Source of the DNA: Minisyncoccota bacterium | GTDB taxonomy: Bacteria; Patescibacteriota; Minisyncoccia; Phycocordibacterales; DATDWN01 | NCBI GenBank assembly: GCA_036517295.1 | Contig: DATDWZ010000016.1 | Span: forward strand, 1-50,783 | Reading direction: 5' to 3' | DNA length: 50,783 nucleotides | Part shown: positions 7,414 through 39,509 of the stretch, in pieces | Layout of the letters: each line of letters begins with the position of its first letter | How positions within the stretch are numbered: the first letter of the stretch is position 1 | The notes under the pieces: model-generated | The model's input: only the letters and a program-made list of their open reading frames with translations | What the model was told of the DNA's origin: nothing | Database searches by the model: none | Program-made: the position numbers and the translations under genes

Positions 7414-7488
7414 TTGACCCGGTAGTGAATTTTGGCATAGCGCTTCGCGCAGGCAATCTTGCAATGCCAAAATTCACTACCGGGTTGA
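7414..7488 (+). mobile_element. Family B inverted-repeat element, copy 1, flanked by TTGA direct repeats
   Basis: Perfect 21-bp IR 7418-7438/7464-7484; second copy at 39434-39509. Confidence 0.75.
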
Positions 7489-7512
7489 TAATTTCTATTT
7501 TATATCTATAAT
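7485..7512 (+). promoter_or_regulatory. Sigma70-type promoter
   Basis: TTGATA-16 nt-TATAAT. Confidence 0.6.
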
Positions 7513-7566
7513 CACGTACAGGGTGAGCGATCGCTCACATAGTTCGTAATGTGGAGGAGTGTCTGT

Positions 7567-7854
7567 ATGACCGACAAGGTCAGTCTCGAAGGGAAGGAAT
7601 ACTCGGTCGGGCAGAGTCTCCGGCTGAAGGGTTTTGTGGCGATGGGGATTCCGGTCGGACAGCGGATCAAGGTGGCGGAGCTCCGAGATCCGAAGGAGCG
7701 TCTGGAGTTCATCGGTGCGGACCTCGACTGGATCGACGAGAGGCTGTGGTTCACAGCTGGGGACATCCTGGAACTCCCGTCACCGGCCTACAACGACTTT
7801 GGCGGGACGGGTGATCCGCAATTCTTTCCGGCCCGCACGGGGGGAGGACTCTAG
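7567..7854 (+). CDS. GC-rich orphan, possible SH3-like fold
   Basis: GGAGGAG SD before ATG 7567; hairpin with T run at about 7871-7924. Confidence 0.6.
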   Translation: MTDKVSLEGKEYSVGQSLRLKGFVAMGIPVGQRIKVAELRDPKERLEFIGADLDWIDERLWFTAGDILELPSPAYNDFGGTGDPQFFPARTGGGL

Positions 7855-8011
7855 GGTCTGATGGTGGGTTAAAAAGTTCTGTGGCACACGGGCAAGACAC
7901 GCCCCGACTGCCGCAGAACTTTTTGTGTTTACGGGCTATTTTTATTAAATACTGATAGACTTTAAGTAGAGACATTTCATAATGAGATGTCAGTCCTTTC
8001 AAGGGGGCCTC

Positions 8012-9421
8012 ATGAACCGAGAAATAATTCAAGGTGGCATGGGGATTTACGTATCAAACCCCCATTTGGCCAAGATGACCTCAACGGCCGGTGCACTCGG
8101 CACGGTGTCCGGGACCGGTTTCGAGCGGATCCTTCCGCACCTTCTTCAGCTTGGAGATATCGGTGGCCACTACAGACGAGCGCTTGCTCATTTTCCGTTT
8201 CCGGAAGTTTCGGAACGGCTCTTGGCCAAGTATTTCGTTGAAGGTGGCAAACCTCTCGACCAAGACTTCAGGCGGGTACCAGCGTTCAGCATGACGCCGA
8301 GTCGTGAACTCATCGAGTTCACGGTTGCCGCTAGTTTCTGTGCCGTGTGGCTTTCGAAAGAAGGTCATGACGGGCCGATTAGCGTCAATTATTTAGAGAA
8401 ACTCCAGATTCCGCACATCTTCCATCTCACAGGGGCAATGCTCGCGGGCGTTGACTATGTGACCATGGGTGCGGGGATCACTCTCCAGATTCCCGGGGTT
8501 CTTGACGCCGTCACACAAGGCGGAGTTCTAAACTACCGCGTCTCGGTTGAGGGAGGTAATTCTCCAACCCAGACGATTAGCTTCAATCCACGCGAGTTTT
8601 TCGGGGAGAATTTCCCACGAGAACTTAAGCGACCGGGGTTTCTGCCGATCGTTTCGACCGACGCACTGGCTGGATTGATGGTCCACAAACTACCGGCCGG
8701 AAGCGTCCAGGGGTTCGTTGTGGAACTGCCGACCGCCGGTGGCCACAACGCTCCGCCACGAGGGCGAGAGAAAGTCTTCGACGACAAAGGTCAGCCCGTC
8801 TACGGCGAGAGAGACGAAGTGAACTTTGAGAAGCTGAAAAACCTGGGAATTCCTTTCTGGATTGGCGGCTCGTTCGCTTCACCAGAGGGTATCGCCAAGG
8901 CCCGGTCTCTTGGAGCGGTGGGGATTCAGGCCGGTTCGATTTTCGCGCTGAGCGAAGATTCCGGTTTGGACCCACACTATCGCCGGGAAATGCGTCGACT
9001 GGGATATCGAGGTGAACTCATTATTCACACCGACCCGACAGCGTCACCGACCAATTATCCGTTCAAGGTGCCACAACTCGCAGGGACGCAATCCGACCCG
9101 GTGATTTACGAAGCCAGAAAACGGATATGCGACAGGTCAGCGCTGACGGTGCCATACGCACTGCCCAACGGCAAAGTCGGTCTGCGGTGTTCAAGTGAAC
9201 CCGTGGCCGACTATGTCCGCAAGGGTGGGAAGATCGAAGACACCGTCGGTCGCCGTTGCCTCTGTAATGTTCTCTTCTCGGCGGTTGGGATCGGAAATCC
9301 GAACGAGCCCCCGATGTTTACACTGGGGGATGACGCAAGCTTCCTGTCTCATTTGATGAAGGATGAGGACGACTCCTACACAGCAGTAGATGCCATCCGG
9401 TATCTGCTGTCGCAAAAATAA
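8012..9421 (+). CDS. Nitronate monooxygenase (2-nitropropane dioxygenase)-family flavoprotein
   Basis: IIQGGMG, AGGHNAPPRG, GIQAGSIFA; GC-rich relative to flanks. Confidence 0.85.
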   Translation: MNREIIQGGMGIYVSNPHLAKMTSTAGALGTVSGTGFERILPHLLQLGDIGGHYRRALAHFPFPEVSERLLAKYFVEGGKPLDQDFRRVPAFSMTPSRELIEFTVAASFCAVWLSKEGHDGPISVNYLEKLQIPHIFHLTGAMLAGVDYVTMGAGITLQIPGVLDAVTQGGVLNYRVSVEGGNSPTQTISFNPREFFGENFPRELKRPGFLPIVSTDALAGLMVHKLPAGSVQGFVVELPTAGGHNAPPRGREKVFDDKGQPVYGERDEVNFEKLKNLGIPFWIGGSFASPEGIAKARSLGAVGIQAGSIFALSEDSGLDPHYRREMRRLGYRGELIIHTDPTASPTNYPFKVPQLAGTQSDPVIYEARKRICDRSALTVPYALPNGKVGLRCSSEPVADYVRKGGKIEDTVGRRCLCNVLFSAVGIGNPNEPPMFTLGDDASFLSHLMKDEDDSYTAVDAIRYLLSQK

Positions 9422-9612
9422 GAAATGCGGGCTTGTCCGCGCGGGGCCTGATATGCTCCATAAAACTATCAAGCTCGGGGAAACTCGGGCTTTAACGTTT
9501 GTAAATTTATTTTACTTCTCTCTGTTTTTTCGCTATCTTTAACAATAATTATATGTATTGTGGTATAATATTTATGTCAAAATTCTATTACAAATTATAA
9601 ATAATAAAAAAT

Positions 9613-11082
9613 ATGAAAGAAATTTTAAAAAAGAAAAAAGTTCACATTATCACGACATGTGGTGCGGTTGCTATCGCTGGGATAATATTATTCCAAGGTG
9701 CTATACCAAAAGCGGAAAGCTCAGTGAAAATTAATTCAATTTCGCCAAACCAGGGCGCCGATGGAACGGAAGTTGTCATAACCGGTTCTGGATTTTCATC
9801 TTCAATTCAAGGAATCACCGGTACTCAAATAAACGGAAAGGTGTACGCCCCAGGCAATTACATTTTAATTCAAAGTGATGTTCTCGAACAACCCATCCTT
9901 TCGCCTGACGGTAAAACGTTAACGTTCCATGTTAATCTTATTTCCGACAAAGTTAAGGCGGACTGCGCGGCCAGCTTAGCTAAAATAAAGCCCGGGTCGT
10001 GTAAAATACAAATCAAGGTGGTGAACGCCTATGGTAAGATGAGCCTTGGTCAATATTTTACTATCACGAGTCTCGTGAGTAAAAAACTTACGTACACAAT
10101 CGAAAAACTTGATATGCCAGTACCAGCAATTGTTCATGCGGTCGTTCCAGGTCAAAGTTGGGACGGTGATGATGTCATGCGTATTCGAGTTAGCGCGCCG
10201 GCAACCAATGGAGACACCATAACCGGTATAATATTTTCTATGGCAACGAACCCAGATGCTTTGGGTAATGGTTTTCAGCAATGTGCCTATTTTTATCCCA
10301 CAAGTTTACCTGACAGTTCTCTCGCAACCGATGGGACCAGACTACGAATGCGGGAAGAACCCTCGACAGGTTATTGGGGCGGGTCGCTTGGTATAGATGG
10401 CGGGGTATTCATATGGGATCCACAGCCGATTCCAGTAGGTTGCTTAGCATATATCGGCGGTTTCCCCCTAGCCCCCGGCGAGCATAAGGACTTCACCGTA
10501 AACATGAAGATGTTTGCTCAAAATTACGCATTAAAGGCAGATGGAACATACACACCTCCAGCGGAACAATCAAAGACATTTAGTCTCATGGTTAAAGCTC
10601 GTGCATTATATTTCGGAACTGGTGGTTACGTTATAGATAATTCTCCGGAAAACGGCTATGACAGTACTTTTGATTATTCTGCCGGCTATGGCGGTAATGA
10701 AATGCGTAGGAGTTTAAGCACATTAATCACAAGCGACCCAATCCAAATAATTCCTCAATCAATACCAACACCAGCCGAATATTTTATGACAGTTGCGGCA
10801 ACGCAATACACAGCAACAGGTACTAATCCTCGCATTATGTATTGGTGGGGGAAAGTAAATCAACATACTGACGCAAACGGAAATTGGCTTACTGACCCCG
10901 ATGGCGTTTCCGGAGCAGATCTAGACAAACTCACATACTGTAAAAAGTTTTATCCAAACACTACCGGCGTGGAAGATTATATGCTAGAGACTACAGATAC
11001 CTGGCGTGATCGCGGGAATGTTGGTGGGCCGTATACTTCAATTAAAATGTCTACAAAGTGTTTGCAACCAAGTCAATTCTAG
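9613..11082 (+). CDS. Secreted/surface protein with IPT/TIG-like domain and Cys-containing C-terminal domain
   Basis: Signal/TM segment; INSISPNQGADGTEVVITGSGF. Confidence 0.7.
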   Translation: MKEILKKKKVHIITTCGAVAIAGIILFQGAIPKAESSVKINSISPNQGADGTEVVITGSGFSSSIQGITGTQINGKVYAPGNYILIQSDVLEQPILSPDGKTLTFHVNLISDKVKADCAASLAKIKPGSCKIQIKVVNAYGKMSLGQYFTITSLVSKKLTYTIEKLDMPVPAIVHAVVPGQSWDGDDVMRIRVSAPATNGDTITGIIFSMATNPDALGNGFQQCAYFYPTSLPDSSLATDGTRLRMREEPSTGYWGGSLGIDGGVFIWDPQPIPVGCLAYIGGFPLAPGEHKDFTVNMKMFAQNYALKADGTYTPPAEQSKTFSLMVKARALYFGTGGYVIDNSPENGYDSTFDYSAGYGGNEMRRSLSTLITSDPIQIIPQSIPTPAEYFMTVAATQYTATGTNPRIMYWWGKVNQHTDANGNWLTDPDGVSGADLDKLTYCKKFYPNTTGVEDYMLETTDTWRDRGNVGGPYTSIKMSTKCLQPSQF

Positions 11083-11154
11083 ACAAAGAAGATTCTGTTT
11101 GAAATATATATTGTTTAGATAGTAAATTTCTCGAAAAACTGATATATTGTCTCC

Positions 11155-12258
11155 ATGTTAAGTATTGGGATTGTGGGACTTCCTAATGTCGGGAAATCGA
11201 CACTGTTTAATGCACTAACTAAAAAGTCAGTACCTGCAGAGAATTATCCTTTTTGTACCATCGACCCGTCAGTCGGTATCGTTCCTGTACCAGACCCTAG
11301 ACTTGCTAAATTGTCAGAATTTAGCAAGTCAGGCAAGACCATACCGGCGGTTGTTGAGTTTGTGGACATTGCCGGCCTCGTTAAGGGCGCGGCTGAAGGA
11401 GAAGGGCTCGGAAATAAGTTTTTGACTAATATTCGTGAGACGGATGCGATATTGGAAGTTGTGCGTATTTTTGAAGATGACAAAATTATTCATGTTCACG
11501 GCGGGATAAACCCAATTTCAGATATTGAAGTAATAAACTATGAACTTGTACTGGCCGATAACGAAACAGTGACCAAGCGACTGTCTAATTTACAGAAAGA
11601 AGTCAAAGCCGGTAAGAAAGAAGCTGTTTATGAAAATGAAATTCTACAAAAGGTGGATGCGTGTATAAAAGCCGGAAAGCTAGTTAACTCACTAGTGTTC
11701 GATGAAAAGGAAAAAGCTGTCGTAAAGCAATTGAACCTACTCACCGCAAAACCTATTATGTATGCTCTCAATAAAAAAGCCGGAAATAAAAACTTAGGCG
11801 ATATATCGCCCAACATAGATGAACCGTGGGGGAAATTAATGGATTTTTTTGAGCAAAATAAAAGTCAGTATGTGGTGATTGATGCCGGAATAGAGCACGA
11901 ACTGAAGGATTTGGCCGGAGAAGAAAAGGAAATGTTTCGTACGGAACTTGGCGGGGAAGACGACGGGATAGATAATTTAATAAAAGGAGGATATCGGTTA
12001 CTCAATCTGATTACATATTTTACAACAGGTGAAGATGAGACGAGGGCCTGGACAATATTACGCGACTCAACTGCGCCTGTTGCTGGACAGGCGATTCACA
12101 CCGATTTCAAAGATAAATTCATTCGTGCCGAAGTGGTTTACTGCAACGACCTACTTTCATCCGGTTCGTATGCATCCGCGCGTGAAAAAGGTCTAGTACG
12201 AACAGAAGGAAAAGATTATATTGTGAAGGATGGTGATGTAATAGAGTTCAAGATTTGA
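11155..12258 (+). CDS. ychF: Redox-regulated ATPase YchF
   Basis: GLPNVGKST, NYPFCTIDP, DIAGLVKGA, EGKDYIVKDGD. Confidence 0.97.
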   Translation: MLSIGIVGLPNVGKSTLFNALTKKSVPAENYPFCTIDPSVGIVPVPDPRLAKLSEFSKSGKTIPAVVEFVDIAGLVKGAAEGEGLGNKFLTNIRETDAILEVVRIFEDDKIIHVHGGINPISDIEVINYELVLADNETVTKRLSNLQKEVKAGKKEAVYENEILQKVDACIKAGKLVNSLVFDEKEKAVVKQLNLLTAKPIMYALNKKAGNKNLGDISPNIDEPWGKLMDFFEQNKSQYVVIDAGIEHELKDLAGEEKEMFRTELGGEDDGIDNLIKGGYRLLNLITYFTTGEDETRAWTILRDSTAPVAGQAIHTDFKDKFIRAEVVYCNDLLSSGSYASAREKGLVRTEGKDYIVKDGDVIEFKI

Positions 12259-12270
12259 TATAATCGGTTC

Positions 12271-12672
12271 ATGAAAAAAGGCTATAAAGGTGATATTGAA
12301 AAACTTACGCTTGAGAACGATAATTTTAGAAAAGTACTTTATACCGGAGAGTATAGCCAGTTGGTGTTGATGAGTCTCTTACCGGGAGAAGAAATAGGAA
12401 GTGAGGTGCATGTCGGTAACGACCAATTTTTCAGGTTTGAGGCCGGGGAGGGGATGGTTTATATAAATGACGCCGAATATGTCGTCAAAAATGGTGACGC
12501 CGTAATAGTGCCAAAAGGGGCCAGGCATAACGTCGTAAACACCGGTAAAACAGAATCACTGAAACTCTACACAGTATATAGTCCGGCTCACCATAAAGAT
12601 GGTATAATCAGAAAAACAAAGACGGAAGCCGAGGTAAACGGTCCGGAGTTTGACGGTGTAACGACGGAATAA
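12271..12672 (+). CDS. Cupin-domain protein
   Basis: EVH...DQFFRFEAG, VPKGARHNVVN. Confidence 0.88.
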   Translation: MKKGYKGDIEKLTLENDNFRKVLYTGEYSQLVLMSLLPGEEIGSEVHVGNDQFFRFEAGEGMVYINDAEYVVKNGDAVIVPKGARHNVVNTGKTESLKLYTVYSPAHHKDGIIRKTKTEAEVNGPEFDGVTTE

Positions 12673-12693
12673 TTATTAATTAAAAATAAAAAT

Positions 12694-13611
12694 ATGAATC
12701 CACAAAAATCAAATGCTAAGGATGTGTTTTTGAACCTCGGGGCAACGGTTGCCCTGTCGGTATTCGTCGGTTATTTGGTCAGTCTTTTATTTACGATAAT
12801 AAACAAAGCTTACCCGGCTATTAACAGTTATTATTATGGCTCTTACTCGATTAGTTTTCCTGTGGCCACATTGATAATCGTCTTTCCGATTTACATTTTA
12901 CTAATGTGGCTTTTGGAAAAATCCTATGCGGTTGCTCCGGAAGACAGGAACGCCGGAATCCGTAAGTGGCTGACCTATATCACTCTTTTTGTTTCAGGTA
13001 TCTGTCTCGCTGGAGACTTGGTTTATGTTGTCTATTACTTTATCGATGGTCAAGAAATGACGGCTGGTTTTCTAATGAAAGCACTCTCTGTTTTAGTTAT
13101 CTCGCTTGGTATTTTCTTCTATTATATTTCCGATGTCAGAGGGAAACTAAACGGTGCCTCAAGAAAGGTTTGGACTTTGGTGGCGACCCTGGTAATTCTA
13201 GGCTCAATAGTCTGGGGCTTTTCGGTTCTCGGTTCTCCTCGTACACAACAGCTTTACAAATATGACCAGGAGAAGGTTTCTCAGTTACAGAGTATAAGTA
13301 GCGAAGTCAGTTATTATTGGCAAAGAAATAACAAGGTACCGATGAAATTGTCGGATTTATCCGAGTCAAGCTACTACACCGTACCTAATGATAAACAGTC
13401 CGGCGCGCCGTACGAATATATCAAGAGTACGAATACCACCTACCAGCTTTGTGCCGAGTTCAACAAATCATCGGAAGAAGCCAATACTATCAGATATGAA
13501 ACATATCCAAGTAAGGTCGGGACATGGAACCATCCGGCTGGCCGTTACTGCTTCTCTCTATCAGCAGATGCAAACCTATCTCCTAAATCCGTACCGATTC
13601 CTCTAGAGTAG
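12694..13611 (+). CDS. Multi-pass membrane protein (DUF5671-like)
   Basis: About five TM segments, IRKWLTYITLF, soluble C-terminus YQLCAEF. Confidence 0.65.
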   Translation: MNPQKSNAKDVFLNLGATVALSVFVGYLVSLLFTIINKAYPAINSYYYGSYSISFPVATLIIVFPIYILLMWLLEKSYAVAPEDRNAGIRKWLTYITLFVSGICLAGDLVYVVYYFIDGQEMTAGFLMKALSVLVISLGIFFYYISDVRGKLNGASRKVWTLVATLVILGSIVWGFSVLGSPRTQQLYKYDQEKVSQLQSISSEVSYYWQRNNKVPMKLSDLSESSYYTVPNDKQSGAPYEYIKSTNTTYQLCAEFNKSSEEANTIRYETYPSKVGTWNHPAGRYCFSLSADANLSPKSVPIPLE

Positions 13612-16313: not shown

Positions 16314-17351
16314 ATGATGGAGAAAACACCAATCACATTTAAACCAAAACAGGTCATAAAGCGCCTGCTCTCTGTTTTAGGGGATAGGTCTCAAGATGTT
16401 TTAACCTCTCGTTTTGGCCTCGGAAACGACCCGAAACGGATGACTTTGGAAGCTATTGGTAAAAAATATAAAATTACTCGCGAAAGAGTCAGACAGATTG
16501 AAAACTATTCAGTAATCAACATCCGCAAATCAAAGGAATATGGTAAAGAAAAAGTGGTTTTTGATGAATTAAGAAAGATAATCGGAGACTTGGGAGCCAC
16601 AGTCTCGGAAGAAGTGCTTTTGAATCATATTTCCAAAGATAAAAGTACCCAGAATCAGATACATTTCTTACTTGTGGTTGGTGAGGATTTTACAAAAGAT
16701 AAAGAAGATTTAGAATTCAAGCACCGCTGGAGTATAGATAAGGATCTATCAAAAAAAATCCACACATCCCTCCGAACATTGTACTCAACCCTCTCCGACG
16801 ATGAAATATTGCTGGAGTCCGATATGGTGGCCAAGTTTTTGGAGCACCTGAAAGATGTTTCGGATAAATATAAAAATGATGAGATTGCAAAGCGATGGTT
16901 GACCCTGTCGAAACTAATAGATAAGAATCCTTTGGGCGAGTGGGGCAAGACCGGCTCTTCAAATATAAACGCAAAAGGCATGCGAGACTATGCTTACCTG
17001 GTCATCCGCCGACACGGCTCGCCGATACATTTCCGGGAAGTAGCCAAACTTATTACCGAACTCTTCAACAAAAAAGCTCATGTTGCTACTACCCACAACG
17101 AACTGATAAAAGACCCTAGGTTTGTTTTGGTTGGCCGTGGACTCTATGCATTGTCAGAATGGGGATATATGAGCGGAGTTGTTCGAGAGGTCATTAAGAG
17201 TGTTTTGGAGAAAAATGGCCCCTTGGCTAAGGACGAGATTATAAAAAAGGTTTTGAAGGAAAGATATGTAAAAGAGAATACTATAATGGTCAACCTACAG
17301 AACGGTAAATATTTCAAAAAGGCGAAAGACGGAAAGTATAGCTTGGTGTAA
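16314..17351 (+). CDS. Sigma70 region-4 HTH plus C-terminal winged-HTH (HARE-HTH-like) protein
   Basis: RFGL...TLEAIGKKYKITRERVRQIE; HNELIKDPRFVLVGRGLYALSEWG; start uncertain. Confidence 0.75.
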   Translation: MMEKTPITFKPKQVIKRLLSVLGDRSQDVLTSRFGLGNDPKRMTLEAIGKKYKITRERVRQIENYSVINIRKSKEYGKEKVVFDELRKIIGDLGATVSEEVLLNHISKDKSTQNQIHFLLVVGEDFTKDKEDLEFKHRWSIDKDLSKKIHTSLRTLYSTLSDDEILLESDMVAKFLEHLKDVSDKYKNDEIAKRWLTLSKLIDKNPLGEWGKTGSSNINAKGMRDYAYLVIRRHGSPIHFREVAKLITELFNKKAHVATTHNELIKDPRFVLVGRGLYALSEWGYMSGVVREVIKSVLEKNGPLAKDEIIKKVLKERYVKENTIMVNLQNGKYFKKAKDGKYSLV

Positions 17352-17504
17352 AATTTCCTGACCCGTATTCTTCGAAAGGCAATCTATCTAGCTCTGTTGA
17401 GCTAGCGAACTTCTCGTCGTTCAAGAAAATAATGGTCGGAATACCTTCTTTATTTTCTAAACTCCTACGAAAGGCCTTTCTCAAAACACGGGTCAGGAAA
17501 TTTT
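17350..17504. repeat. 155-bp structured element with 17-bp terminal inverted repeats
   Basis: AAAATTTCCTGACCCGT / ACGGGTCAGGAAATTTT plus internal stems. Confidence 0.7.
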
Positions 17505-19980: not shown

Positions 19981-21120
19981 ATGATAAAAAAGCTGAAGGT
20001 ATTTGTCGGGGTTTCTGGTGGAGTAGACAGCTCTGTGGCTTTGGCGTTGCTTCAAAAGGCTACACCAAATAACTTCTCAAAGTTATTTGGTCGCCCAACC
20101 CCGGAGGGGTTTAGGGGCTACGATGTCACAGGAGTGTTTCTGAAGGTCTGGAATCCAGAGTGGTTACCCTGTAACTGGAAGGAGGAGAGACGGAGCGCCA
20201 TGCGAGTGTGTGCGACCCTAGGCGTTCCATTTCTAACATTTGATTTTGGGAAGGAATACAAGAAAGAGGTGGTGGATTATATGATACGAGAATACGGTGA
20301 GGGACGAGTGCCAAATCCGGATGTTTTTTGCAATAAATATGTGAAGTTTGGAGTCTTTCTTGATAAAGCGCTAGATATGGGAGTTGATTTTATCGCTACC
20401 GGTCATTATGCCATATGTCAAAGAGTCCCTTTGACATATGAGTTACGAGAAAGCGCGGATAAAAATAAAGACCAGAGTTACTTTTTGTACACATTGAGTC
20501 AAGAACAACTAAAACACACACTTTTTCCTGTGGGGCATCTGACAAAACCGGAAGTTAGGAAGTTGGCGAAACGGTTCGGTCTACCAACAGCTGAAAAAAA
20601 AGACAGTCAAGGTCTCTGCTTTATCGGTAAAGTTGATATGAAGGATTTTTTGGCACATTATATCGATATTAAAAAAGGTAACGTTCTCAATACAAAAGGT
20701 GAAGTTATCGGTTCACATGATGGAGCTATGTTTTACACTATAGGCCAAAGACATGGATTTATTATTATAGAAAAAACTTCTACGGATCCACGATTTTTTG
20801 TCGTTTCAAAAAATTTAGAAAAAAATACAATTACTGTCATGGACAAAAAGTCACACAAAGACCTACTTTACTCAACTAAAGCGGTGATACTTCGTGATTT
20901 ATTTTTTATATCCGGGGTGGAACCAAAATTACCCCTAAAGACTTCAGTACGAATTCGCTATCGTCAGGAAAAGCAAAACTGTACTCTTGAAAAGAAAGCG
21001 AACGATTACCAAATTATTTTTGATGAATTACAGAGCGGTGTATCTATCGGTCAATCTGCCGTACTATACGATGGAGAAGTCTGTTTGGGAGGTGGAATAA
21101 TAGAAAAAGTCGTGCAATAA
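19981..21120 (+). CDS. mnmA: tRNA 2-thiouridylase MnmA
   Basis: SGGVDS, PNPDVFCN, ATGHYA, KDQSYFL, DSQGLCF. Confidence 0.96.
   Translation: MIKKLKVFVGVSGGVDSSVALALLQKATPNNFSKLFGRPTPEGFRGYDVTGVFLKVWNPEWLPCNWKEERRSAMRVCATLGVPFLTFDFGKEYKKEVVDYMIREYGEGRVPNPDVFCNKYVKFGVFLDKALDMGVDFIATGHYAICQRVPLTYELRESADKNKDQSYFLYTLSQEQLKHTLFPVGHLTKPEVRKLAKRFGLPTAEKKDSQGLCFIGKVDMKDFLAHYIDIKKGNVLNTKGEVIGSHDGAMFYTIGQRHGFIIIEKTSTDPRFFVVSKNLEKNTITVMDKKSHKDLLYSTKAVILRDLFFISGVEPKLPLKTSVRIRYRQEKQNCTLEKKANDYQIIFDELQSGVSIGQSAVLYDGEVCLGGGIIEKVVQ
20064..20111. repeat. Double hairpin encoding an in-frame insertion in mnmA
   Basis: ACCAAATAACTT-CTCA-AAGTTATTTGGT then AACCCC-GGA-GGGGTT. Confidence 0.65.
20412..20440. repeat. 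Coding palindrome, copy 2 (inside mnmA)
   Basis: CATATGTCAAAG-AGTCC-CTTTGACATATG. Confidence 0.8.
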
Positions 21121-28020: not shown

Positions 28021-28134
28021 ATGAATCCCGTTAGAGATAACGGAAATCGAAAAAGACTATGGTCGAAGCATTAAAACATAATCAGTATAGGAATCATTAC
28101 AAAGTATGTGTGATTTCCTATCTCTAACGGGATG
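28021..28134 (+). mobile_element. Family A start-codon element, copy 1
   Basis: ATGAATCCCGTTAGAGATA...TATCTCTAACGGG-ATG; 15-bp perfect IR. Confidence 0.85.
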
Positions 28135-29758: not shown

Positions 29759-29894
29759 ATGAATCCCGTTAGAGATTATCGGGTTGATTTATAACGGATT
29801 AGGTGATATAAAGATGTGGTCTAAATTAATCATTTTATAAACATAAACTACGGAAATGCCTCTTCAGGAGGGATTTCCTATCTCTAACGGGATG
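29759..29894 (+). mobile_element. Family A start-codon element, copy 2 (before rpmJ)
   Basis: ATGAATCCCGTTAGAGAT...ATCTCTAACGGG-ATG; interior closely similar to copy 3. Confidence 0.85.
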
Positions 29895-32620: not shown

Positions 32621-32621
32621 C

Positions 32622-32760
32622 ATGAATCCCGTTAGAGATCACTCAGTTGATTTATAATGGATTAAGTGATATAAAGATGAAGCTTAAATTAATTATTATA
32701 TAAACATAAGGTACGGAAATGCCTCGTATTTTCGAGGGATTTCCTATCTCTAACGGGATG
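32622..32760 (+). mobile_element. Family A start-codon element, copy 3 (before rplQ)
   Basis: ATGAATCCCGTTAGAGAT...ATCTCTAACGGG-ATG. Confidence 0.85.
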
Positions 32761-33500: not shown

Positions 33501-33923
33501 ATGGAAGCCACAATTACAAAAAAAGAGAAAATAGAGCGGTACATAGAAGCGGTAGGTCGCCGAAAGACGGCCGTTGCTCGGGTTCGCATAACCCCGGCCA
33601 CAAAGACCAGTGTTTTGGTGAACGATAGGGAATTGGATAAATATTTTACTGTAAAAGAAATGGCAAATATTGCCATGCAACCTTTTGTGGAAGCAAACGA
33701 ACCTCAGAAGTTTAAGGTTACTGTCATGGTTAACGGTGGTGGTATGCATTCAGGCGCTGAAGCCGTTCGACATGGTATCGCCCGAGCGCTTGTTCTATAC
33801 AGCGCCAACCTTCGAAAAACCCTCAAAAAAGCCGGTTACTTGAAGCGAGATCCTCGCGCAAAAGAACGAAGAAAGTTCGGTCTGAAGAAAGCAAGGAAGG
33901 CTCCACAGTGGTCGAAACGATAA
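33501..33923 (+). CDS. rpsI: 30S ribosomal protein S9
   Basis: GRRKTAVARV, ERRKFGLKKARKAPQWSKR. Confidence 0.97.
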   Translation: MEATITKKEKIERYIEAVGRRKTAVARVRITPATKTSVLVNDRELDKYFTVKEMANIAMQPFVEANEPQKFKVTVMVNGGGMHSGAEAVRHGIARALVLYSANLRKTLKKAGYLKRDPRAKERRKFGLKKARKAPQWSKR

Positions 33924-34108
33924 GAAAGAGCCCACCACTCTGAAAAGTTTTGTGCGTCACATTGGAGTAAGCGTTAAAACAAAAGCACCCCAGAGTTTTT
34001 CTGTTAATTCACTCCATTTTAACTTAACTAAGTCTTGCCCAGTTGACTAACTAGTCGGCTAACATCCATAATTTACTACAATATATCGTAGTAAATTATT
34101 TTATACTT

Positions 34109-34138
34109 TTACACTATACGATTAATCGTATAGTGTAA
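34109..34138. repeat. Perfect 30-bp palindrome
   Basis: TTACACTATACGATTAATCGTATAGTGTAA is its own reverse complement. Confidence 0.85.
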
Positions 34139-34224
34139 GGCTTATCCTTGATTTCAGTTCGGGGGTAATTTTACATAGGAAGACCGCCGATCGTGCCGGT
34201 TTTATCCGTAGTACGATGGGCGGT

Positions 34225-34470
34225 TCAGAGCTTCTTCCCACAGAAGGGACAGAAGTGAATCTTGACTCTTTTACTCACGGCCTCGCCAGACTTTGGCGCG
34301 ATGAGCGAAACCATGAGGTGTGCCCGTTTACCGACAATGGCCACCCGGCCAGTTTCTTGCTCTAAACTCCCCAGTTCTGTTCTTGCAACGGTGTCGGTGC
34401 GATTCCATGAAGGTCCTCCTAACAAATTATCGCATAATATATCACCAACAGCGAACTTATTTTGAGCCAT
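34225..34470 (-). CDS. Orphan with C-terminal FCPFCGKKL zinc-ribbon-like motif
   Basis: 81-aa ORF, downstream hairpin ACCGCC/GGCGGT. Confidence 0.55.
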   Translation of the reverse strand: MAQNKFAVGDILCDNLLGGPSWNRTDTVARTELGSLEQETGRVAIVGKRAHLMVSLIAPKSGEAVSKRVKIHFCPFCGKKL

Positions 34471-34498
34471 TTGATTTTCGTGTTAAAATAGCAAAACT

Positions 34499-35056
34499 AT
34501 GAAAAATATGGCTAAAAATATTGAGATTGAGCACAGAGCCAGGTTTTCTCTGAAGAAATACAGCGACCTAGGCCGGTTTCTAAAATCCAAAGCCAAAGAC
34601 CTCGGCGCAAACGACCAAAGAGTGTGGTTTTTTGTCATGCCAGACAAACTGCTCAAAGTCACACATAACATGACTAAAGGAAACGGCAAACTAACTCTTA
34701 AATTAACAAAAATCGGAAAGGGGAATCATTTCAAGGAAATAGAGTTTCCAATCGACGAGAAAAATATTGAAAAAGCGGTTGAGATGTTCAATGCTCTTGG
34801 TTACAAGTGTTTATATGAGCCAAAAATCCTGAGACATAACTACATGTACAAAGGTGTGGAGTTGGCGCTGAAGTATAGCAAAACTTGGGGTTATCATTTA
34901 GAATTAGAAGTGCTGGTCAATTCGCTAAAAGATAAGCCAAAAGCGGAAGAGAAAATAAATCTTGTGGCCGCGGAACTCAGAATACATGTTATGGCAGAAA
35001 AAGAGTTGTGGAAGTTTACACAAAATATAGAAAAGACATATAAAAACCCAAAATAA
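34499..35056 (+). CDS. CYTH-domain protein
   Basis: IEIEHR N-terminus, KEIEF, GYHLELE. Confidence 0.75.
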   Translation: MKNMAKNIEIEHRARFSLKKYSDLGRFLKSKAKDLGANDQRVWFFVMPDKLLKVTHNMTKGNGKLTLKLTKIGKGNHFKEIEFPIDEKNIEKAVEMFNALGYKCLYEPKILRHNYMYKGVELALKYSKTWGYHLELEVLVNSLKDKPKAEEKINLVAAELRIHVMAEKELWKFTQNIEKTYKNPK

Positions 35057-35057
35057 C

Positions 35058-35645
35058 ATGACAGATGATGAGAAAAATCTGAATACAGAGCCTGAGATAG
35101 ACACCGATGCCGGAGATGATGTCGTGTTTGAGGACAATACCGAGGTAACTGGGATGGATTATGCTGTAAAAACTGCCAAACTGAAGGTGCAAATAAAAGA
35201 CTTGCAAAAGAAGAATGCCGAACTCCTTGATTCATGGCAGAGAGATAAGGCCGATTTTGTAAACCTAAGAAAGAGAGATGAGGAAATAAAGAAAGAGTTC
35301 GTTAAATTCTCAAAATCCGAAATCATAGCCGAGATTATTCCTACACTAGACTCTTTCGATTCTGCTTTCAAAAACAAGGAAGCCTGGGAAAAAGTGGATA
35401 AAAACTGGCGAGTCGGTGTGGAATACATCCACTCCCAACTTCTTGCTATTCTCACCAATCACGGGTTAAAGGTTATAAATCCTTTGGGTCAGGTTTATGA
35501 TCACGCTCGCGACGAAGCAGTAGAAACGGTTAAGGTTGACAGTAAGTCCGAAGATGGTAAAATACTGGATGTGGTGCAAGTTGGGTATGAACTTAACGGT
35601 AAAGAGATACGGGCGCCGAAGGTCAAAGTCGGCCACTTGACGTAG
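35058..35645 (+). CDS. grpE: Nucleotide exchange factor GrpE
   Basis: ADFVNLRKR, VVQVGYEL..IRAPKVKV. Confidence 0.93.
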   Translation: MTDDEKNLNTEPEIDTDAGDDVVFEDNTEVTGMDYAVKTAKLKVQIKDLQKKNAELLDSWQRDKADFVNLRKRDEEIKKEFVKFSKSEIIAEIIPTLDSFDSAFKNKEAWEKVDKNWRVGVEYIHSQLLAILTNHGLKVINPLGQVYDHARDEAVETVKVDSKSEDGKILDVVQVGYELNGKEIRAPKVKVGHLT

Positions 35646-35646
35646 C

Positions 35647-35668
35647 TGATACACTTTTGATACACTTT
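35647..35668 (+). promoter_or_regulatory. Tandem 11-bp direct repeat, likely TA operator
   Basis: TGATACACTTT x2 ending 5 nt before antitoxin ATG. Confidence 0.55.
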
Positions 35669-35673
35669 ATACT

Positions 35674-35901
35674 ATGGCTACAATAAAACAAAGGATAAAC
35701 ATTACTGCAAACGAAAGTGTTGAGAAGATGATAAAACACTTGGCAAAGAGGGATAACATGCCTGTTTCTGCTAAGGCACTCGATCTTTTACGCCTAGCTT
35801 TAGATTTGGAAGAAGATATGATTTGGGCAAATATAGCAGACAAGAGAAAAGATAACGGCCCGTACATAGAGCATGAAAAATTCTGGAAAGGAAAAATATG
35901 A
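35674..35901 (+). CDS. Putative RHH-type antitoxin
   Basis: 75 aa, RINIT beta strand, acidic LDLEED, overlaps toxin. Confidence 0.72.
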   Translation: MATIKQRINITANESVEKMIKHLAKRDNMPVSAKALDLLRLALDLEEDMIWANIADKRKDNGPYIEHEKFWKGKI

Positions 35902-36166
35902 AGTTTTCTATCATAAGCTGGTTAAGGATGACATATTAAAAATTGACCAGCAAATGTTAAGAAAGATATACGCTGCTATCATAAGTAAACTTGTTTTAGC
36001 TCCAAATATATATGGTTTACCCTTACACGGAGTACTGAAAAAATACTGGAAATTTAGGGTCAGTGATTACAGAATAATTTATTTGATCGAAAATAAAAGA
36101 ATATTGATTAAAATAATAGGGCACAGGAAAGACGTGTATAATACAATAAACAGAAGAATTGATTAA
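35873..36166 (+). CDS. RelE/ParE-family toxin
   Basis: GLPLHG.L..YWKFRVSDYRIIY..IGHRKDVY. Confidence 0.88.
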   Translation: MKNSGKEKYEVFYHKLVKDDILKIDQQMLRKIYAAIISKLVLAPNIYGLPLHGVLKKYWKFRVSDYRIIYLIENKRILIKIIGHRKDVYNTINRRID

Positions 36167-36171
36167 ATAAT

Positions 36172-36462
36172 ATGCAGATAATACAGTCAAAAGGGAATAT
36201 TGTAGAAAAGGTTCTTCGGGACAAAGAAGGGCGACTTATTCGTGCTCGATTTTATGTGTATGAAAATGCTGGAAGAATAAAGGCGAGACTTATTGATTTT
36301 ACATATGTATATGAACTTGTCGGTCGCGGAGTTTCTGCTCTATCTGGATTTATAAAAAAAATAATAGTTTGGACAAGAGCACTTAACCAACCTGTTTTCT
36401 CTCAGTTTGTTTTTAAAAGTATTTATATGTCAGGCTCTAAACCCAGAGCACCCACTCTATAA
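36172..36462 (+). CDS. Hypothetical protein
   Basis: 96-aa ORF with host-like composition upstream of dnaK. Confidence 0.6.
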   Translation: MQIIQSKGNIVEKVLRDKEGRLIRARFYVYENAGRIKARLIDFTYVYELVGRGVSALSGFIKKIIVWTRALNQPVFSQFVFKSIYMSGSKPRAPTL

Positions 36463-36500
36463 TTTAATTTGTTTTTATTAAAAACTAATTAAATTAAATT

Positions 36501-38411
36501 ATGGCAAAAACTATTGGTATCGACCTAGGTACTACAAACAGTGCTGTTGCGGTCATGGAAGCCGGACAGCCTAAAATACTGGAAAATGCAGAAGGTGCAA
36601 GAACTACACCCTCTATCGTTGCTGTCTCAAAAACAGGTGAAAGACTTGTGGGGCTTTTGGCAAAGCGACAGGCAGTTACCAACCCAAAGAACACAGTTTT
36701 CGGTATAAAACGATTTATTGGTCACACGTTTGACGATGAAGCGGTTCAGAAAGACAAAAAAATCGTGCCTTTTGAGGTTATGAAATCAGCAACAAACGGG
36801 GTGAAGGTAAAAATCTCCGATAAAGAATATTCTCCAGAAGAGATCTCGGCCATGGTCCTCTCAAAGATAAAGGCTGATGTCGAAGCAAAGACCGGCGACA
36901 AGGTAACACAAGCAATCATTACTGTTCCGGCATACTTTAACGATGCCCAGAGACAGGCCACGAAAGACGCCGGTGCTATCGCCGGTCTCGAGGTATTGCG
37001 AATAATAAACGAGCCGACAGCCGCGGCACTTGCCTACGGCTTCGACAAAGGCAAAAAAGAGGAAAAGATCGTAGTCTTCGACTTCGGTGGTGGTACATTC
37101 GATGTTTCTGTTCTCGAAGTTGGCGATGCGGTTATAGAAGTGAAATCTACAGACGGGGACTCACACCTTGGAGGTAAGGACATCGACCAGAAAATCATAA
37201 ACTTCTTGGCAGATGAGTTCAAGAAAGAGTCCGGTATCGATTTACGTTCTGACACGCTCGCGTTACAGCGACTGGACGAAGCGGCAGAAAAAGCAAAGAT
37301 CGAACTCTCAACCGCGATGGAGTCAGAAGTGAACATTCCGTTCATCACATCAGACGCTTCTGGCCCACGACACTTGCTTATAAAAATCACTCGAGCAAAA
37401 CTTGAGGAGCTTACGGCAGAATTCATCGACCGTGCGATGTCTATCACAAAACGAGCGATGGAAGCATCAGGCTTCAAGACATCCGATATAAATGAAGTTA
37501 TCCTCGTTGGTGGCCAGACTCGCATGCCAAAGATGTCGGATGCTGTTAAAACATACTTCGGCAAAGACCCGAATAAGTCTATCAACCCGGACGAAGTTGT
37601 GGCTCTCGGAGCGGCTATCCAGGGTGGTATTTTGTCAGGAGATGTCAAAGATGTGCTTCTTCTCGATGTTATACCTCTGTCGCTCGGTATAGAGACTATG
37701 GGGGGCGTTGCTACAAAGCTTGTAGAGCGAAATACGACCATTCCGGCATCACGCTCACAGGTGTTCTCGACCGCAGCAGACAACCAAACATCTGTGGAAA
37801 TCCACATCGTTCAAGGGGAACGAGCAATGGCCACTGACAATAAATCACTCGGACGGTTTATTCTCGACGGTATTCCACCGGCTCCGCGAGGCATGCCTCA
37901 GGTTGAGGTTATGTTCGATGTCGATGCAAATGGTATTTTATCAGTCAAAGCGAAAGACAAGGCGACAAACAAAGAGCAATCAATCCGTATAGAAGCACGC
38001 TCATCTCTTTCGAAAGATGAGATTGAGAAAATGCAAAAAGACGCCGAAATGCATGCTAGTGACGACTTGAAGAAAAAGGATTTGGTTGAAGCGAGAAATA
38101 TCGCTGAGCAACTCGTTTACACAGCGGAGAAATCTCTTCGCGATGCGGGAGATAAAGTTCCCACCGAACTCCGTGCAACGATTGAAAATAAAGTCACTGA
38201 TGTAAAAACTGCGCAAAAAGGCGAAGATATGGAGCAGATAAAAAAGACTACGACCGAACTCTCGACTGAACTACAAAAGATTGGCGAGATAATCAATAAA
38301 GCTTCACAAGAACAAGCACAATCTCAAACCTCACCGAAAGAGGGAGACCCTTCGACTAGCTCAGGACAAGACGGCCCTGTTCGTGACGCGGATTTTGAGG
38401 AGAAAAAGTAG
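36501..38411 (+). CDS. dnaK: Chaperone DnaK
   Basis: [32 protein letters not shown]. Confidence 0.98.
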
Positions 38412-38435
38412 GGTACAGAAAAACCACTAAAGAAA

Positions 38436-38470
38436 CAACGCCTGGTCCCCATATTGGGAACCGGGCGTTG
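38436..38470. terminator. Hairpin between convergent dnaK and orphan array
   Basis: CAACGCCTGGTCCCC/GGGAACCGGGCGTTG imperfect stem. Confidence 0.65.
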
Positions 38471-38509
38471 CTGTCGTGCTTGGAACATTGCTTTGAACCT
38501 CTTGATGGC

Positions 38510-38770
38510 CTATTCGACCATGTCTTCGGGTGCGAGCTCCCGTCGCGGAGCCGGCATGGGCGCCGTTCCGGCCAGTTCCGGCACTTCCGGTGTCGTCACG
38601 TTCGCTTCGCGGGCCGTGGCGGCCTGTTCATGGTGATAGCGCACCACCCCTTGCTTGACTGCCTCGTCGACTTCCTGCACATCAAGTCGTCCGAGGGTTT
38701 GAGCGATTTTTTGCACGGCCTCGCCCAGTGTGAGCTGGGTGAGTGTTCCTGGTGTTCTGCCTCGATCCAT
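38510..38770 (-). CDS. GC-rich orphan; frame ambiguous, coding region may extend beyond this ORF
   Basis: GGAGG SD before ATG 38770; several overlapping open frames. Confidence 0.4.
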   Translation of the reverse strand: MDRGRTPGTLTQLTLGEAVQKIAQTLGRLDVQEVDEAVKQGVVRYHHEQAATAREANVTTPEVPELAGTAPMPAPRRELAPEDMVE

Positions 38771-38913
38771 TGGTGGGATCCTCCATGTGATCCAGTATCC
38801 ATATTGCCTGATTCTTGAACATTGTCAATCAGATACCTGAAAGGACGTGAGAGGTTGCTTGGTTCTGTGAACTTGCAACATCACGCCCTTTTGAAAAACT
38901 TTCTCGAGCCGTT

Positions 38914-39381
38914 CTACTTCACTCCGCCGTGGAAAGCGTCGCGCGATTTCCGCGCGATTTCCCTGACTCGTTCATCCAGTTGTCTACGAGTCATTACTCC
39001 GACGACGCCACCCTTGTGGCTTTGAAACAGAAGTGCTCGTCCGATCTTCGGACACCACATCGCCCAGAAGCGCCGACCCTTGAGACACACAGTGATTCTC
39101 GTACATCTCCCGCATGGGCAAATGTGCCAGGTCAGCCTCGGCGCTTTTGAGTACTCCTTGTACTCGTCACGAATTGTCTTGTTCACATCGACCACTGACT
39201 TGTGACTGAACTTCCCGACATGGAAACCCCAGCCGGCGTGCTTGGTGAAGAGGAGGTGTGGTCCAGCGCCCATAATCTGACCTCTCCAGAAGTATCGGCC
39301 ACGGTAGATGGTTTCCCAACCGGCACATCCGCAGTAGCAGAAGTGCCACAAGATTTGCTTATTCCGTCGCTGTTTTGGCAT
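38914..39381 (-). CDS. GC-rich orphan with duplicated WH.C.CG motif
   Basis: AAGGGG SD; WHFCYCGC..GRYFW and WHICPCGRC..GRRFW. Confidence 0.6.
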   Translation of the reverse strand: MPKQRRNKQILWHFCYCGCAGWETIYRGRYFWRGQIMGAGPHLLFTKHAGWGFHVGKFSHKSVVDVNKTIRDEYKEYSKAPRLTWHICPCGRCTRITVCLKGRRFWAMWCPKIGRALLFQSHKGGVVGVMTRRQLDERVREIARKSRDAFHGGVK

Positions 39382-39433
39382 AAACCCCTTTCGTTACTCT
39401 CTGTTATCCAGAATACTCCTTAATCTAAATCGG

Positions 39434-39509
39434 TCAACCCGGTAGTAGATTTTAGCATTGCAGGAATTACCTGCGCAGAGCGCTATGCCAAAATTCACTA
39501 CCAGATCAA
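39434..39509 (-). mobile_element. Family B element, copy 2
   Basis: Reverse-complement match to 7414-7488, flanked by TCAA repeats (TTGA on minus). Confidence 0.72.

What the first reader, a model, noticed from the sequence alone, without database searches (positions are those of the whole stretch)
7414..39509. Sister element (family B) sits at duplicated TTGA of -35 promoter boxes
Seen: TTGA-CCCGGTAGTGAATTTTGGCAT...ATGCCAAAATTCACTACCGGG-TTGA at 7414-7488 and a diverged copy at 39434-39509, both in the same orientation relative to local transcription and both between a terminator and the next orphan gene. The right TTGA begins a -35 box with 16-nt spacer in both (TTGATA..TATAAT; TTGACC..TATTCT). 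The end CCCGGTAGTGA matches family A CCCGTTAGAGA at 9 of 11 positions. Inference: same superfamily, with target WTGA, one branch at start codons and one at promoters.
Basis: partly seen in the sequence, partly recalled or inferred. Interest (0 to 1): 0.78.

Follow-up and report, generated by a model that had tools for sequence, protein, structure and literature searches.

The report
Tiny transposon sitting at promoter boxes
A 67-base palindromic mobile element of ultra-small groundwater bacteria inserts so that the four bases it duplicates rebuild the promoter's -35 box, and its full-length relatives carry nothing but a 90-residue nuclease gene.

Summary
Both copies are real: 7418-7484 and 39438-39505, with 21-nt inverted ends and flanking TTGA. 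On the gene-proximal side TTGA starts a -35/-10 pair.

Family B is a 62-95 bp MITE of Patescibacteria. I analysed 60 copies.
- 41 have an exact duplication of 4-5 nt, and 39 of these 41 read T...A.
- 28 sit at TTGA. Of these, 25 read TTGAC and 24 have TAnnnT 16-18 nt further on. The background for intergenic TTGA is 12% (p = 2e-18).
- Three insertions seen in relatives have empty orthologous sites in this genome. No empty site was found for the two window copies.

Thirteen 313-328 bp elements have B-type ends around an 89-96 aa GIY-YIG-only gene. Eleven of them sit at start codons, for example ATGA|CCC...GGG|ATGA, and two at TTGA. Family A is the MITE of a sister GIY-YIG element.

So the superfamily link and the WTGA-like target hold, but the split 'one branch at promoters, one at start codons' is not clean.

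My reading is a T..A/WTGA site preference combined with selection for insertions that rebuild the signal they split. That the nuclease moves the elements is inferred, not shown.

The parts
7418..7484 (+). Family B MITE, copy 1. It is 67 bp with perfect 21-nt terminal inverted repeats and two small internal hairpins.
   Evidence: I14; DNA fold -29.5 kcal/mol, z -10.6, three-way junction
7414..7417 (+). Left copy of the TTGA target-site duplication of copy 1.
7485..7488 (+). Right copy of the TTGA duplication. These are the first four bases of the -35 hexamer TTGATA.
7485..7512 (+). Promoter-like site TTGATA-16-TATAAT, reading away from the element.
   Evidence: 11 of 12 matches; shuffles give a mean of 0.4 sites
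7364..7405 (+). Terminator-like hairpin plus T run of the upstream ORF 6860-7378.
7568..7854 (+). Downstream ORF with no Pfam family. I take the ATG at 7568 as the start because GGAGGAG precedes it. The ORF list starts it at 7549.
39438..39505 (-). Family B MITE, copy 2. It is 68 bp. Its arms carry 2 and 3 mismatches to the 21-mer.
   Evidence: I2, I4; z -5.5
39506..39509 (-). Promoter-distal copy of the TTGA duplication (TCAA on the + strand).
39434..39437 (-). Promoter-proximal copy of the TTGA duplication. These are the first four bases of the -35 hexamer TTGACC.
39410..39437 (-). Promoter-like site TTGACC-16-TATTCT.
   Evidence: 9 of 12 matches
39518..39554 (-). Imperfect hairpin followed by UUUUGUG after the ORF 39559-39879 (-). 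It is a likely terminator, but the scan tool did not call it.
   Evidence: -21.7 kcal/mol, z -2.9; one search lists no - strand terminator
38914..39381 (-). Downstream ORF of 155 aa, Cys-rich, with no Pfam family.
21101..21104 (+). Empty TAGA site. In a same-genus relative (L027, G004) a family B copy sits here, flanked by TCTA/TCTA on the other strand.

Best explanation
Family B is a non-autonomous transposable element (MITE) of Patescibacteria.

Anatomy. It has 21-nt inverted ends (CCCNGTAGT[GA/AG]ATTTTGGCAT) around two small hairpins.

Parent elements. It belongs to a superfamily whose full-length members are only 273-328 bp long. These hold one gene, an 89-96 aa stand-alone GIY-YIG nuclease. 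Family A is the MITE of the sister branch.

Insertion. Insertion duplicates 4 (3-5) bases of the form T...A. This fits two nicks, each 5' of a T, staggered by about four bases. Preferred sites are WTGA: ATGA/ATGNA at start codons and TTGA elsewhere.

Which copies persist. The copies that persist are those where the duplication rebuilds the signal that was split.
- Gene-carrying copies and family A MITEs sit on a duplicated start codon. They are translated from the host's ribosome site and hand ribosomes on at an overlapping stop/start.
- Read from ATGA, family B meets TAG TGA at once (ATG ACC CGG TAG TGA), so it would uncouple the host gene there.
- At TTGA of a -35 hexamer the promoter-side copy restores TTGACN. 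The element then simply lies between the upstream terminator and an intact promoter.

Shown: the ends, the duplications, empty sites in kin, the excess at -35 boxes, and GIY-YIG genes inside B-type ends.

Inferred: that the nuclease is the mobilising enzyme, the cut geometry, that the promoters are active, and that selection rather than direct promoter recognition explains the promoter bias.
For: Mobile element:
- Paired ends occur at unrelated loci in 11 of 41 related genomes. Among the 80 listed stretches of the genome-contig scan, all 17 with paired ends come from MAGs labelled as Patescibacteria lineages, or just 'bacterium'.
- Among the 60 copies, exact duplications are 4 nt in 29, 5 nt in 12, and 3 nt in 6. 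39 of the 41 duplications of 4 nt or more read T...A.
- Empty orthologous sites exist in G000 for three insertions: TTGCA (L001/L047 against C11), TTCA (L022 against C43), and TCTA (L027 against window 21101-21104).

Promoter link:
- 28 of 60 copies sit at TTGA, while TTGA + TCAA make up 13% of intergenic TNNA.
- 25 of the 28 have C at position +5. There is no strong signal upstream.
- 24 of the 28 have TAnnnT 16-18 nt on. The background is 164 of 1334 intergenic TTGA and 68 of 246 intergenic TTGAC in G000 (binomial p = 1.8e-18 and 2.4e-10).
- Where the duplication is imperfect next to a TTGA box (C40, L011, L086, L100, L214), the promoter-side copy is the intact TTGA.

Superfamily:
- A 278-bp family A element encodes a GIY-YIG protein (P0001).
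- Such genes occur in 122 of 151 genomes of the order, with up to 10 matches per genome and many carrying stops.
- 13 elements have B-type ends around a GIY-YIG ORF. One lies directly beside a family B MITE at the rpsS promoter.
- In the genus, the closest B-type genes (61-69% identity to the G037 query) are in G046, G019, G010 and G042. All four also hold family B copies.
Against: - There is no biochemical or genetic evidence that a GIY-YIG nuclease can move DNA this way. These enzymes hydrolyse DNA and do not join it.
- Co-inheritance of gene and ends is expected for any element, so it does not show that the protein acts on the ends.
- G000 has four family B copies but no B-type GIY-YIG gene at E <= 1e-24. 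G029 has a family B copy but no GIY-YIG hit.
- No empty site was found for either window copy.
- Promoters are consensus matches only. No RNA run is on record.
- The intergenic background rests on my crude ORF calling (85% coding) and on G000 alone.
- The copies are not all independent. L001/L047 and L041/L133 are orthologous insertions.
- An 86% promoter share is hard to separate from direct promoter targeting.
- 32 of 60 copies are not at TTGA.
Confidence: 0.65

Rival explanations
1. The element actively targets promoters. The insertion machinery recognises the -35 hexamer, or DNA held by RNA polymerase or sigma factor, rather than just TTGA. In this reading the promoter bias is a property of the enzyme and not of selection.
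For: - 24 of 28 TTGA sites are promoter-like, against 12% of intergenic TTGA and 28% of intergenic TTGAC.
- C at +5 in 25 of 28, outside the duplication.
- Selection alone should allow any site upstream of the -35, yet the register is exact.
Against: - 32 of 60 copies lie elsewhere with other T...A duplications, and most of these show no promoter-like site in register.
- Elements with the same ends sit at start codons in 11 of 13 gene-carrying copies.
- The exact register is also explained by a TTGA preference.
- The -10 spacing varies between 16 and 18 nt, as in ordinary promoters.
Confidence: 0.2
2. Family B is a MITE of an ordinary DDE insertion sequence. From recall, families with 4-5 bp duplications and CC ends include IS1380 and ISH3. 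In this reading the GIY-YIG gene is a passenger or an unrelated element with similar ends.
For: - Inverted ends plus short duplications are the classic DDE signature.
- G000 lacks a B-type GIY-YIG gene.
Against: - In the sequence searched, no longer element with B-type ends holds anything other than a GIY-YIG ORF.
- 13 of 13 B-type gene-carrying elements are 313-328 bp, which leaves no room for a transposase.
- I did not scan the genomes for DDE families, so this rival remains open.
Confidence: 0.1
3. Family B is a REP/REPIN-type palindrome moved by the RAYT-like Y1 transposases of these genomes.
For: - GTAG lies within each arm.
- Four Y1_Tnp-like genes of about 233 aa are present in a 740-kb genome, each flanked by hairpins.
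- The element folds as a long imperfect hairpin.
Against: - Clear duplications of variable sequence and empty sites. From recall, Y1 transposases make no such duplications.
- The Y1 genes are flanked by different palindromes (CCCAAAGG.., CCCTAGGG..), not by B ends.
Confidence: 0.04
4. Family B is not primarily mobile DNA. It is a conserved regulatory site, such as an operator, an UP-like element or an insulator placed upstream of promoters.
For: - Its position immediately upstream of -35 boxes.
- Ends conserved across an order-level clade.
- Hairpin-preserving variation in the core.
Against: - Duplications and empty sites.
- Both orientations occur, 10 against 14.
- Copies inside coding sequence, in a 5' leader and at a gene's 3' end.
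- Tandem arrays.
- Later co-option of individual copies is not excluded.
Confidence: 0.03

Closest known systems
Bacterial MITEs such as Correia/NEMIS elements of Neisseria (recalled)
   Same: Short, non-coding, with terminal inverted repeats and a short target duplication. Many copies near genes, with an effect on or neutrality toward promoters.
   Different: - Correia elements duplicate TA and carry promoter parts inside the element. Here the -35 comes from the duplicated target.
- The parent elements here hold a GIY-YIG gene, not a DDE transposase.
- The host clade is Patescibacteria.
REP/BIME/REPIN repeats with RAYT (Y1) transposases (recalled)
   Same: Palindromic, extragenic, with a GTAG motif. 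Y1 transposase-like genes are present in the genome.
   Different: - Family B has target duplications and empty sites.
- The Y1 genes carry other flanking hairpins.
Stand-alone GIY-YIG proteins of the UPF0213/COG2827 type (PDB 1ZG2) and GIY-YIG homing endonucleases such as I-TevI (the latter recalled)
   Same: The ORF in the full-length elements is a GIY-YIG catalytic domain (Pfam PF01541, E = 3.5e-18 and 3.3e-20). The nearest solved chain is 1zg2_A.
   Different: - Homing endonucleases have added DNA-binding domains and spread by homing, without inverted ends or target duplications.
- Here the gene fills a 273-328 bp unit with inverted ends and duplications, and it has MITE derivatives.
Insertion sequences that form hybrid promoters with an outward -35 in their end (recalled)
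   Same: A mobile element lies directly next to a -35/-10 pair.
   Different: In those cases the -35 lies in the element and creates a new promoter. Here the -35 is host sequence that is duplicated, so an existing promoter is preserved.
Rickettsia palindromic elements (recalled)
   Same: Palindromic repeats tolerated in frame inside genes. The C38 copy adds 24 residues after Met-Lys.
   Different: Only a minority of family B copies are in coding sequence. RPEs have no known parent gene or fixed target.

Membership tests
MITE (non-autonomous inverted-repeat transposon) | Terminal inverted repeats | tested here: met
   21-nt arms, perfect in copy 1. They are conserved in 60 copies.
MITE (non-autonomous inverted-repeat transposon) | Target-site duplication whose sequence differs between copies | tested here: met
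   47 of 60 copies have an exact 3-5 nt duplication, with 13 distinct sequences among those of 4 nt or more.
MITE (non-autonomous inverted-repeat transposon) | Presence/absence at orthologous sites | tested here: met
   Three empty sites were found in G000 for copies in relatives. None was found for the two window copies.
MITE (non-autonomous inverted-repeat transposon) | Too small to encode a protein, with a longer coding relative that has the same ends | tested here: met
   Copies are 62-95 bp. 13 elements of 313-328 bp share the first 12-16 nt of the end and hold a GIY-YIG ORF.
REP/REPIN with RAYT | No target duplication; the RAYT gene is flanked by the same repeat | tested here: not met
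   Duplications are present. The four Y1_Tnp genes are flanked by other palindromes.
DDE insertion-sequence families with 4-5 bp duplications | A DDE transposase gene between the same ends | not tested
   No long pair of B ends with another gene was seen in the loci held or in 401 genomes for one spacing class. I ran no search for DDE families.
GIY-YIG homing endonuclease genes | GIY-YIG catalytic domain | tested here: met
   PF01541 at 66.1 and 72.6 bits against a cut-off of 22.6. This applies to the full-length relatives, not to the window copies.
GIY-YIG homing endonuclease genes | Added DNA-binding domain; location in an intron or as a free-standing gene without inverted ends | tested here: not met
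   The proteins are 89-96 aa, catalytic domain only. The group I intron endonuclease model scores 19.5 and 22.9 bits against a cut-off of 56. The elements have inverted ends and duplications.
Known RNA families (Rfam 15) | Match at gathering score | tested here: not met
   The only hit in the window is a tRNA at 4035-4107.

The most novel reading that the evidence does not exclude
The 273-328 bp units are autonomous DNA transposons whose only protein is a roughly 90-residue GIY-YIG nuclease. That would make them the smallest self-mobilising elements known and the first nuclease-only, cut-and-rejoin transposons in bacteria. They would survive in very compact genomes because the duplication they make rebuilds the very signal they split: a start codon or a -35 box. 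Family B would be their promoter-dwelling MITE.
Probability: 0.4. Interest if true: 0.92.

Novelty: new variant of a known kind. Interest (0 to 1): 0.8.

Why it matters
Patescibacteria have genomes of 0.5-1 Mb with almost no spare DNA. How mobile elements persist there is an open point.

These elements suggest an answer. They insert where the duplicated target restores the host signal, so the cost is close to nil.
- At a -35 box the promoter stays intact.
- At a start codon the host gene is still translated.

If the small GIY-YIG protein is the mobilising enzyme, this adds a new enzymatic class to bacterial DNA transposition. It also gives a function to a widespread, unexplained family of stand-alone GIY-YIG proteins.

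On the practical side, the copies mark promoters and true start codons in genomes of uncultured organisms with no transcriptome data. They also explain contig breaks in these MAGs.

Tried and rejected
Empty sites for the two window copies
- A DNA search with 6700-8300 in 41 genomes of the genus matched only the element itself, plus one short hit inside the downstream ORF.
- A protein search with 38914-39381 found a 60% identical gene in G044. Its upstream region is not alignable. It has its own TTGATT-17-TATTGT site and no element.
- Metagenome scans with the two flanking proteins gave nothing or the same sequence as G044.

Sequencing runs
- No RNA holder was listed.
- Laying contigs of four DNA runs showed a 1263-nt contig of X6 spanning copy 2 unchanged, and contig breaks at the repeats. 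Among the joints shown there was no allele without the element. Contigs cannot show rare variants.

Long B-type elements by pattern
- One spacing class (235-265) searched in 401 genomes gave only nested or tandem composites.
- The three unpaired B-like ends examined in the genome-contig loci were one degenerate copy and two chance matches.

Other checks
- tRNA genes downstream of promoters with long leaders: none in the 15 loci scanned.
- Rfam: no family.
- I rejected a cyanobacterial origin. GCGATCGC occurs only 3 times in 740 kb.

Literature
- I saw search listings only, except for one passage of PMC12455944, which mentions GIY-YIG proteins among transferred genes.
- The searches were: miniature inverted-repeat + Patescibacteria; GIY-YIG + terminal inverted repeats + target site duplication; MITE / 35 hexamer / target site duplication; GIY-YIG + Parcubacteria; insertion sequence + 35 region + target specificity + promoter + inserts; GIY-YIG + mobile + inverted repeats + start codon + bacteria; UPF0213 / COG2827 / YhbQ.
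- None listed a description of these elements. Subscription journals and supplementary files were not seen.

Tools and rows left out
- Before the counts I dropped 10 of 70 end pairs longer than 100 bp (composites or long variants).


Full report
What is there

The window is contig C16 of a 740-kb, 46-contig, 42% G+C genome estimated to be 92% complete. It encodes ordinary cellular genes such as DnaK, DnaJ and LeuRS. Related genomes are 0.4-1.4 Mb. The public genomes that hold the same repeat are labelled as Patescibacteria lineages: Paceibacterota, Zambryskibacteria, Kaiserbacteria, Taylorbacteria and the like.

Copy 1 (7418-7484) has perfect 21-nt inverted ends and TTGA on both sides. Copy 2 (39438-39505) is the same element on the other strand, with 2 and 3 mismatches in its arms and TTGA on both sides. 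The scan tool finds TTGATA-16-TATAAT at 7485-7512 and TTGACC-16-TATTCT at 39437-39410. It also finds a terminator-like site at 7364-7395. For copy 2 the upstream hairpin is imperfect and was seen only by folding.

A family with target duplications

G000 holds four close copies: two in the window, C38:152-220 and C40:35380-35455. It also holds variants with the same outer core and other inner arms, including 30-bp hairpins.

The 21-mer, with up to 2 mismatches, occurs in 11 of 41 related genomes, always as + / - pairs some 20-45 nt apart. The reversed control pattern gave no hit. A scan of one genome per species gave 119 stretches. Among the 80 listed, 17 have paired ends, and all of those are in Patescibacteria-labelled or unlabelled MAGs. 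Single hits in other phyla lack the CCC start and are what chance predicts.

Pairing ends gave 70 elements. I dropped 10 that were longer than 100 bp (composites and long variants) and analysed 60, which are 62-95 bp with a median of 70.
- Flanks repeat exactly over 4 nt in 29 copies, 5 nt in 12, 3 nt in 6, and fewer in 13.
- 39 of the 41 duplications of 4 nt or more begin with T and end with A.
- TTGA/TCAA, with TTTGA/TCAAA, account for 23 of those 41.

Empty sites

Three insertions have empty orthologous sites in G000.
- L001 and L047 carry the element in TTGCA|...|TTGCAT-17-TATAAT. G000:C11 has a single TTGCAT-17-TAATAT.
- L022 has TTCA|...|TTCA in a leader about 15 nt after a TTGACA-17-TATACT promoter. 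G000:C43 has a single TTCA.
- L027 has TCTA|...|TCTA. The window has one TAGA at 21101-21104.

In the first case G000 instead carries a family A copy at the ATGA start of the same gene, and that site is empty in L001 and L047.

So the family is mobile and makes real duplications. For the two window copies themselves I found no empty site. Contigs of four runs showed only the filled form.

Promoter association

- 28 of the 60 copies have TTGA at the start of an outward flank.
- 25 of these 28 have C next (TTGACT 15, TTGACA 10 at the sixth base among all 28). There is no strong signal upstream of the site.
- 24 of the 28 have TAnnnT 16-18 nt after the hexamer, and by eye many have TG before it (flanks listed).

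In G000, with my crude ORF mask (85% coding), 164 of 1334 intergenic TTGA and 68 of 246 intergenic TTGAC meet the same test. The binomial p values are 1.8e-18 and 2.4e-10. TTGA + TCAA are 13% of intergenic TNNA sites, against 47% of copies.

Among the 32 other copies, 13 show TAnnnT on some side, which is near chance given two sides and two offsets. A few of them are clear -35 variants, such as TTGCAT and TGGACA.

The arm facing the promoter is of either type, 10 against 14. Where the two copies of the duplication differ beside a TTGA box (C40, L011, L086, L100, L214), the promoter-side copy is the intact TTGA. This is as expected if that copy is the working -35.

Caveats:
- These are consensus matches without expression data.
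- The background comes from one genome.
- At least two pairs of copies are orthologous.

Other contexts

- The C38 copy follows ATG AAA and is read through in frame, adding 24 residues.
- L030, L081, L132 (second copy) and L135 lie at ATGGA or GTGGA.
- L027 replaces the last codons of a gene and ends on the TAG of its duplication. I read this from the alignment and the frame.

The parent elements

By my pattern, 33 of 49 have a start codon duplicated on both sides, and most of the rest have it on one side.

A 278-bp family A copy (C22:19867-20144) holds a 95-aa GIY-YIG ORF. The ORF starts at the host's ATG and ends at a TGA overlapping the duplicated ATGA. A second copy is cut by the window's end (50532-50783).

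Such genes occur in 122 of 151 genomes sampled from the order, with up to 10 matches per genome and many carrying stops. Among the top 30 loci, 19 have clear CCC-type inverted ends spanning 273-284 bp. These include CCCGTTAGAG, CCCGTACGAA and CCCGATAGTGCT, nearly all on ATGAA-type flanks.

B-type ends also enclose such genes. G037:C12:53171-53489 is 319 bp, with arms CCCATTAGTAGAATTTCA and CCCCGTAGTGAGATTTCA. It is followed by TTGA, a family B MITE, TTGA again, and then CT...-17-TATTAT ahead of an S19-like ORF, which I identified by eye.

Searching with its protein (PF01541, 66 bits; nearest solved chain 1zg2_A) gave B-type ends in 10 of 14 loci from the order. It also gave three complete copies and one partial copy in the window's own genus. 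Together with the overlap of L200 and L215, that makes 13 distinct full copies.
- Eleven lie at start codons: ATGA|CCC...GGG|ATGA twice, GTGA once, and ATGAG, ATGGA, ATGCA, ATGAA, etc.
- Two lie at TTGA/TCAA.

The A-type and B-type proteins are 48-49% identical. In the genus, the four genomes with the closest B-type genes (G046, G019, G010, G042) all hold family B copies. Nine or so other family B holders, G000 among them, do not have such a gene.

How it most likely works

The T...A rule, on duplications of 3-5 nt, fits two nicks 5' of T on opposite strands. This is inference. WTGA is the favoured site for B-type ends.

Which insertions persist then follows from what the duplication restores.
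- At a start codon the upstream copy keeps the ribosome site and opens the element's ORF. The downstream copy restarts the host gene.
- Family B read from ATGA gives ATG ACC CGG TAG TGA, so it would uncouple the host gene. The few family B copies at start codons use other registers or stay in frame.
- At the TTGA of a -35 box the promoter is rebuilt, and the element lies in the gap after the upstream terminator, as in both window copies.

I cannot separate this from direct promoter recognition. The 86% promoter share and the C at +5 leave that rival alive.

That the GIY-YIG protein is the mobilising enzyme rests on one argument: it is the only gene in a unit that has ends, duplications, many copies and MITE derivatives.

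Structure

Each copy folds as a long stem with two small hairpins. The hairpin sequences differ between copies but remain palindromic.

57 of 60 copies have arms that differ at positions 10-11 (GA against AG). The core lies in either orientation relative to that asymmetry, 34 against 20. I have no tested explanation for this. Recombination within the inner arms would do it.

Known relatives and novelty

- REP/RAYT is rejected by the duplications and by the different hairpins around the four Y1 genes.
- No Rfam family matches.
- The listed searches found no paper on these elements.

As a MITE, family B is a new variant of a known kind. The gene-carrying units may be a new kind of transposon.

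Noticed in passing
window 28027-28131, 29765-29891, 32628-32757, 40944-41040, 49294-49420: Family A MITEs (97-130 bp, ends CCCGTTAGAG) sit on duplicated start codons (ATGAAT|...|ATGAA). G000 has 49 end pairs. Their inner ends match the 3' end of the GIY-YIG gene of the full-length element.
   Followed up: partly
window 50532-50783 and G000:C22:19867-20144: Full-length family A elements. The window copy is cut by the contig end and carries a GIY-YIG ORF on the - strand at 50576-50782. In the complete 278-bp C22 copy the ORF starts at the host gene's own ATG and stops at a TGA overlapping the duplicated ATGA.
   Followed up: partly
G000:C11:7430-7720 against L001 and L047: The same gene carries a family A copy at its start codon in G000 and a family B copy at its -35 box in two relatives. 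Each site is empty in the other genome.
   Followed up: yes
G000:C5:15645-16343, C4:12631-13344, C35:560-1261, C18:1347-2045: Four Y1_Tnp-like (RAYT-like) genes of about 233 aa are each flanked by their own palindromes (CCCAAAGG..CCTTTGGG or CCCTAGGG..CCCTAGGG). A copy of the palindrome appears to lie in frame inside the C4 gene (C4:12934), and a similar one inside the C5 gene as I read its protein.
   Followed up: partly
L202 (G180:C20:15017-18282), about 1497-1770: Four family B copies lie in tandem, separated by 4-nt spacers (TTGT, TTGT, TAAT). Similar back-to-back pairs share one duplication in L135, L222 and G037:C12. This suggests that the site next to an existing end is a hot spot.
   Followed up: no
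60 family B copies: The two arms differ at positions 10-11 in 57 of 60 copies. The two-hairpin core lies in either orientation relative to them (34 against 20), a flip/flop-like state with no tested cause.
   Followed up: partly
L078 230-362; L096 6318-6451: Longer family B variants (about 133 bp) carry an AT-rich core with a ribosome-site-like motif and an ATG that reads out through the arm into the flanking gene. In L078 this is into what looks, by eye, like the N-terminus of a methyltransferase.
   Followed up: no
window 6039-6172 and 42130-42255: An AT-rich direct repeat of about 130 bp (74-75% identity) lies just upstream of two + strand ORFs (6167.. and 42250..) (D1, D3).
   Followed up: no
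window 17350-17504: An inverted repeat with 31-nt arms (87% complementary, 93 nt apart) lies between two + strand ORFs (I8).
   Followed up: no
window 7523-7540: A perfect 18-nt palindrome centred on GCGATCGC lies in the leader between the -10 box and the start of the ORF at 7568.
   Followed up: no
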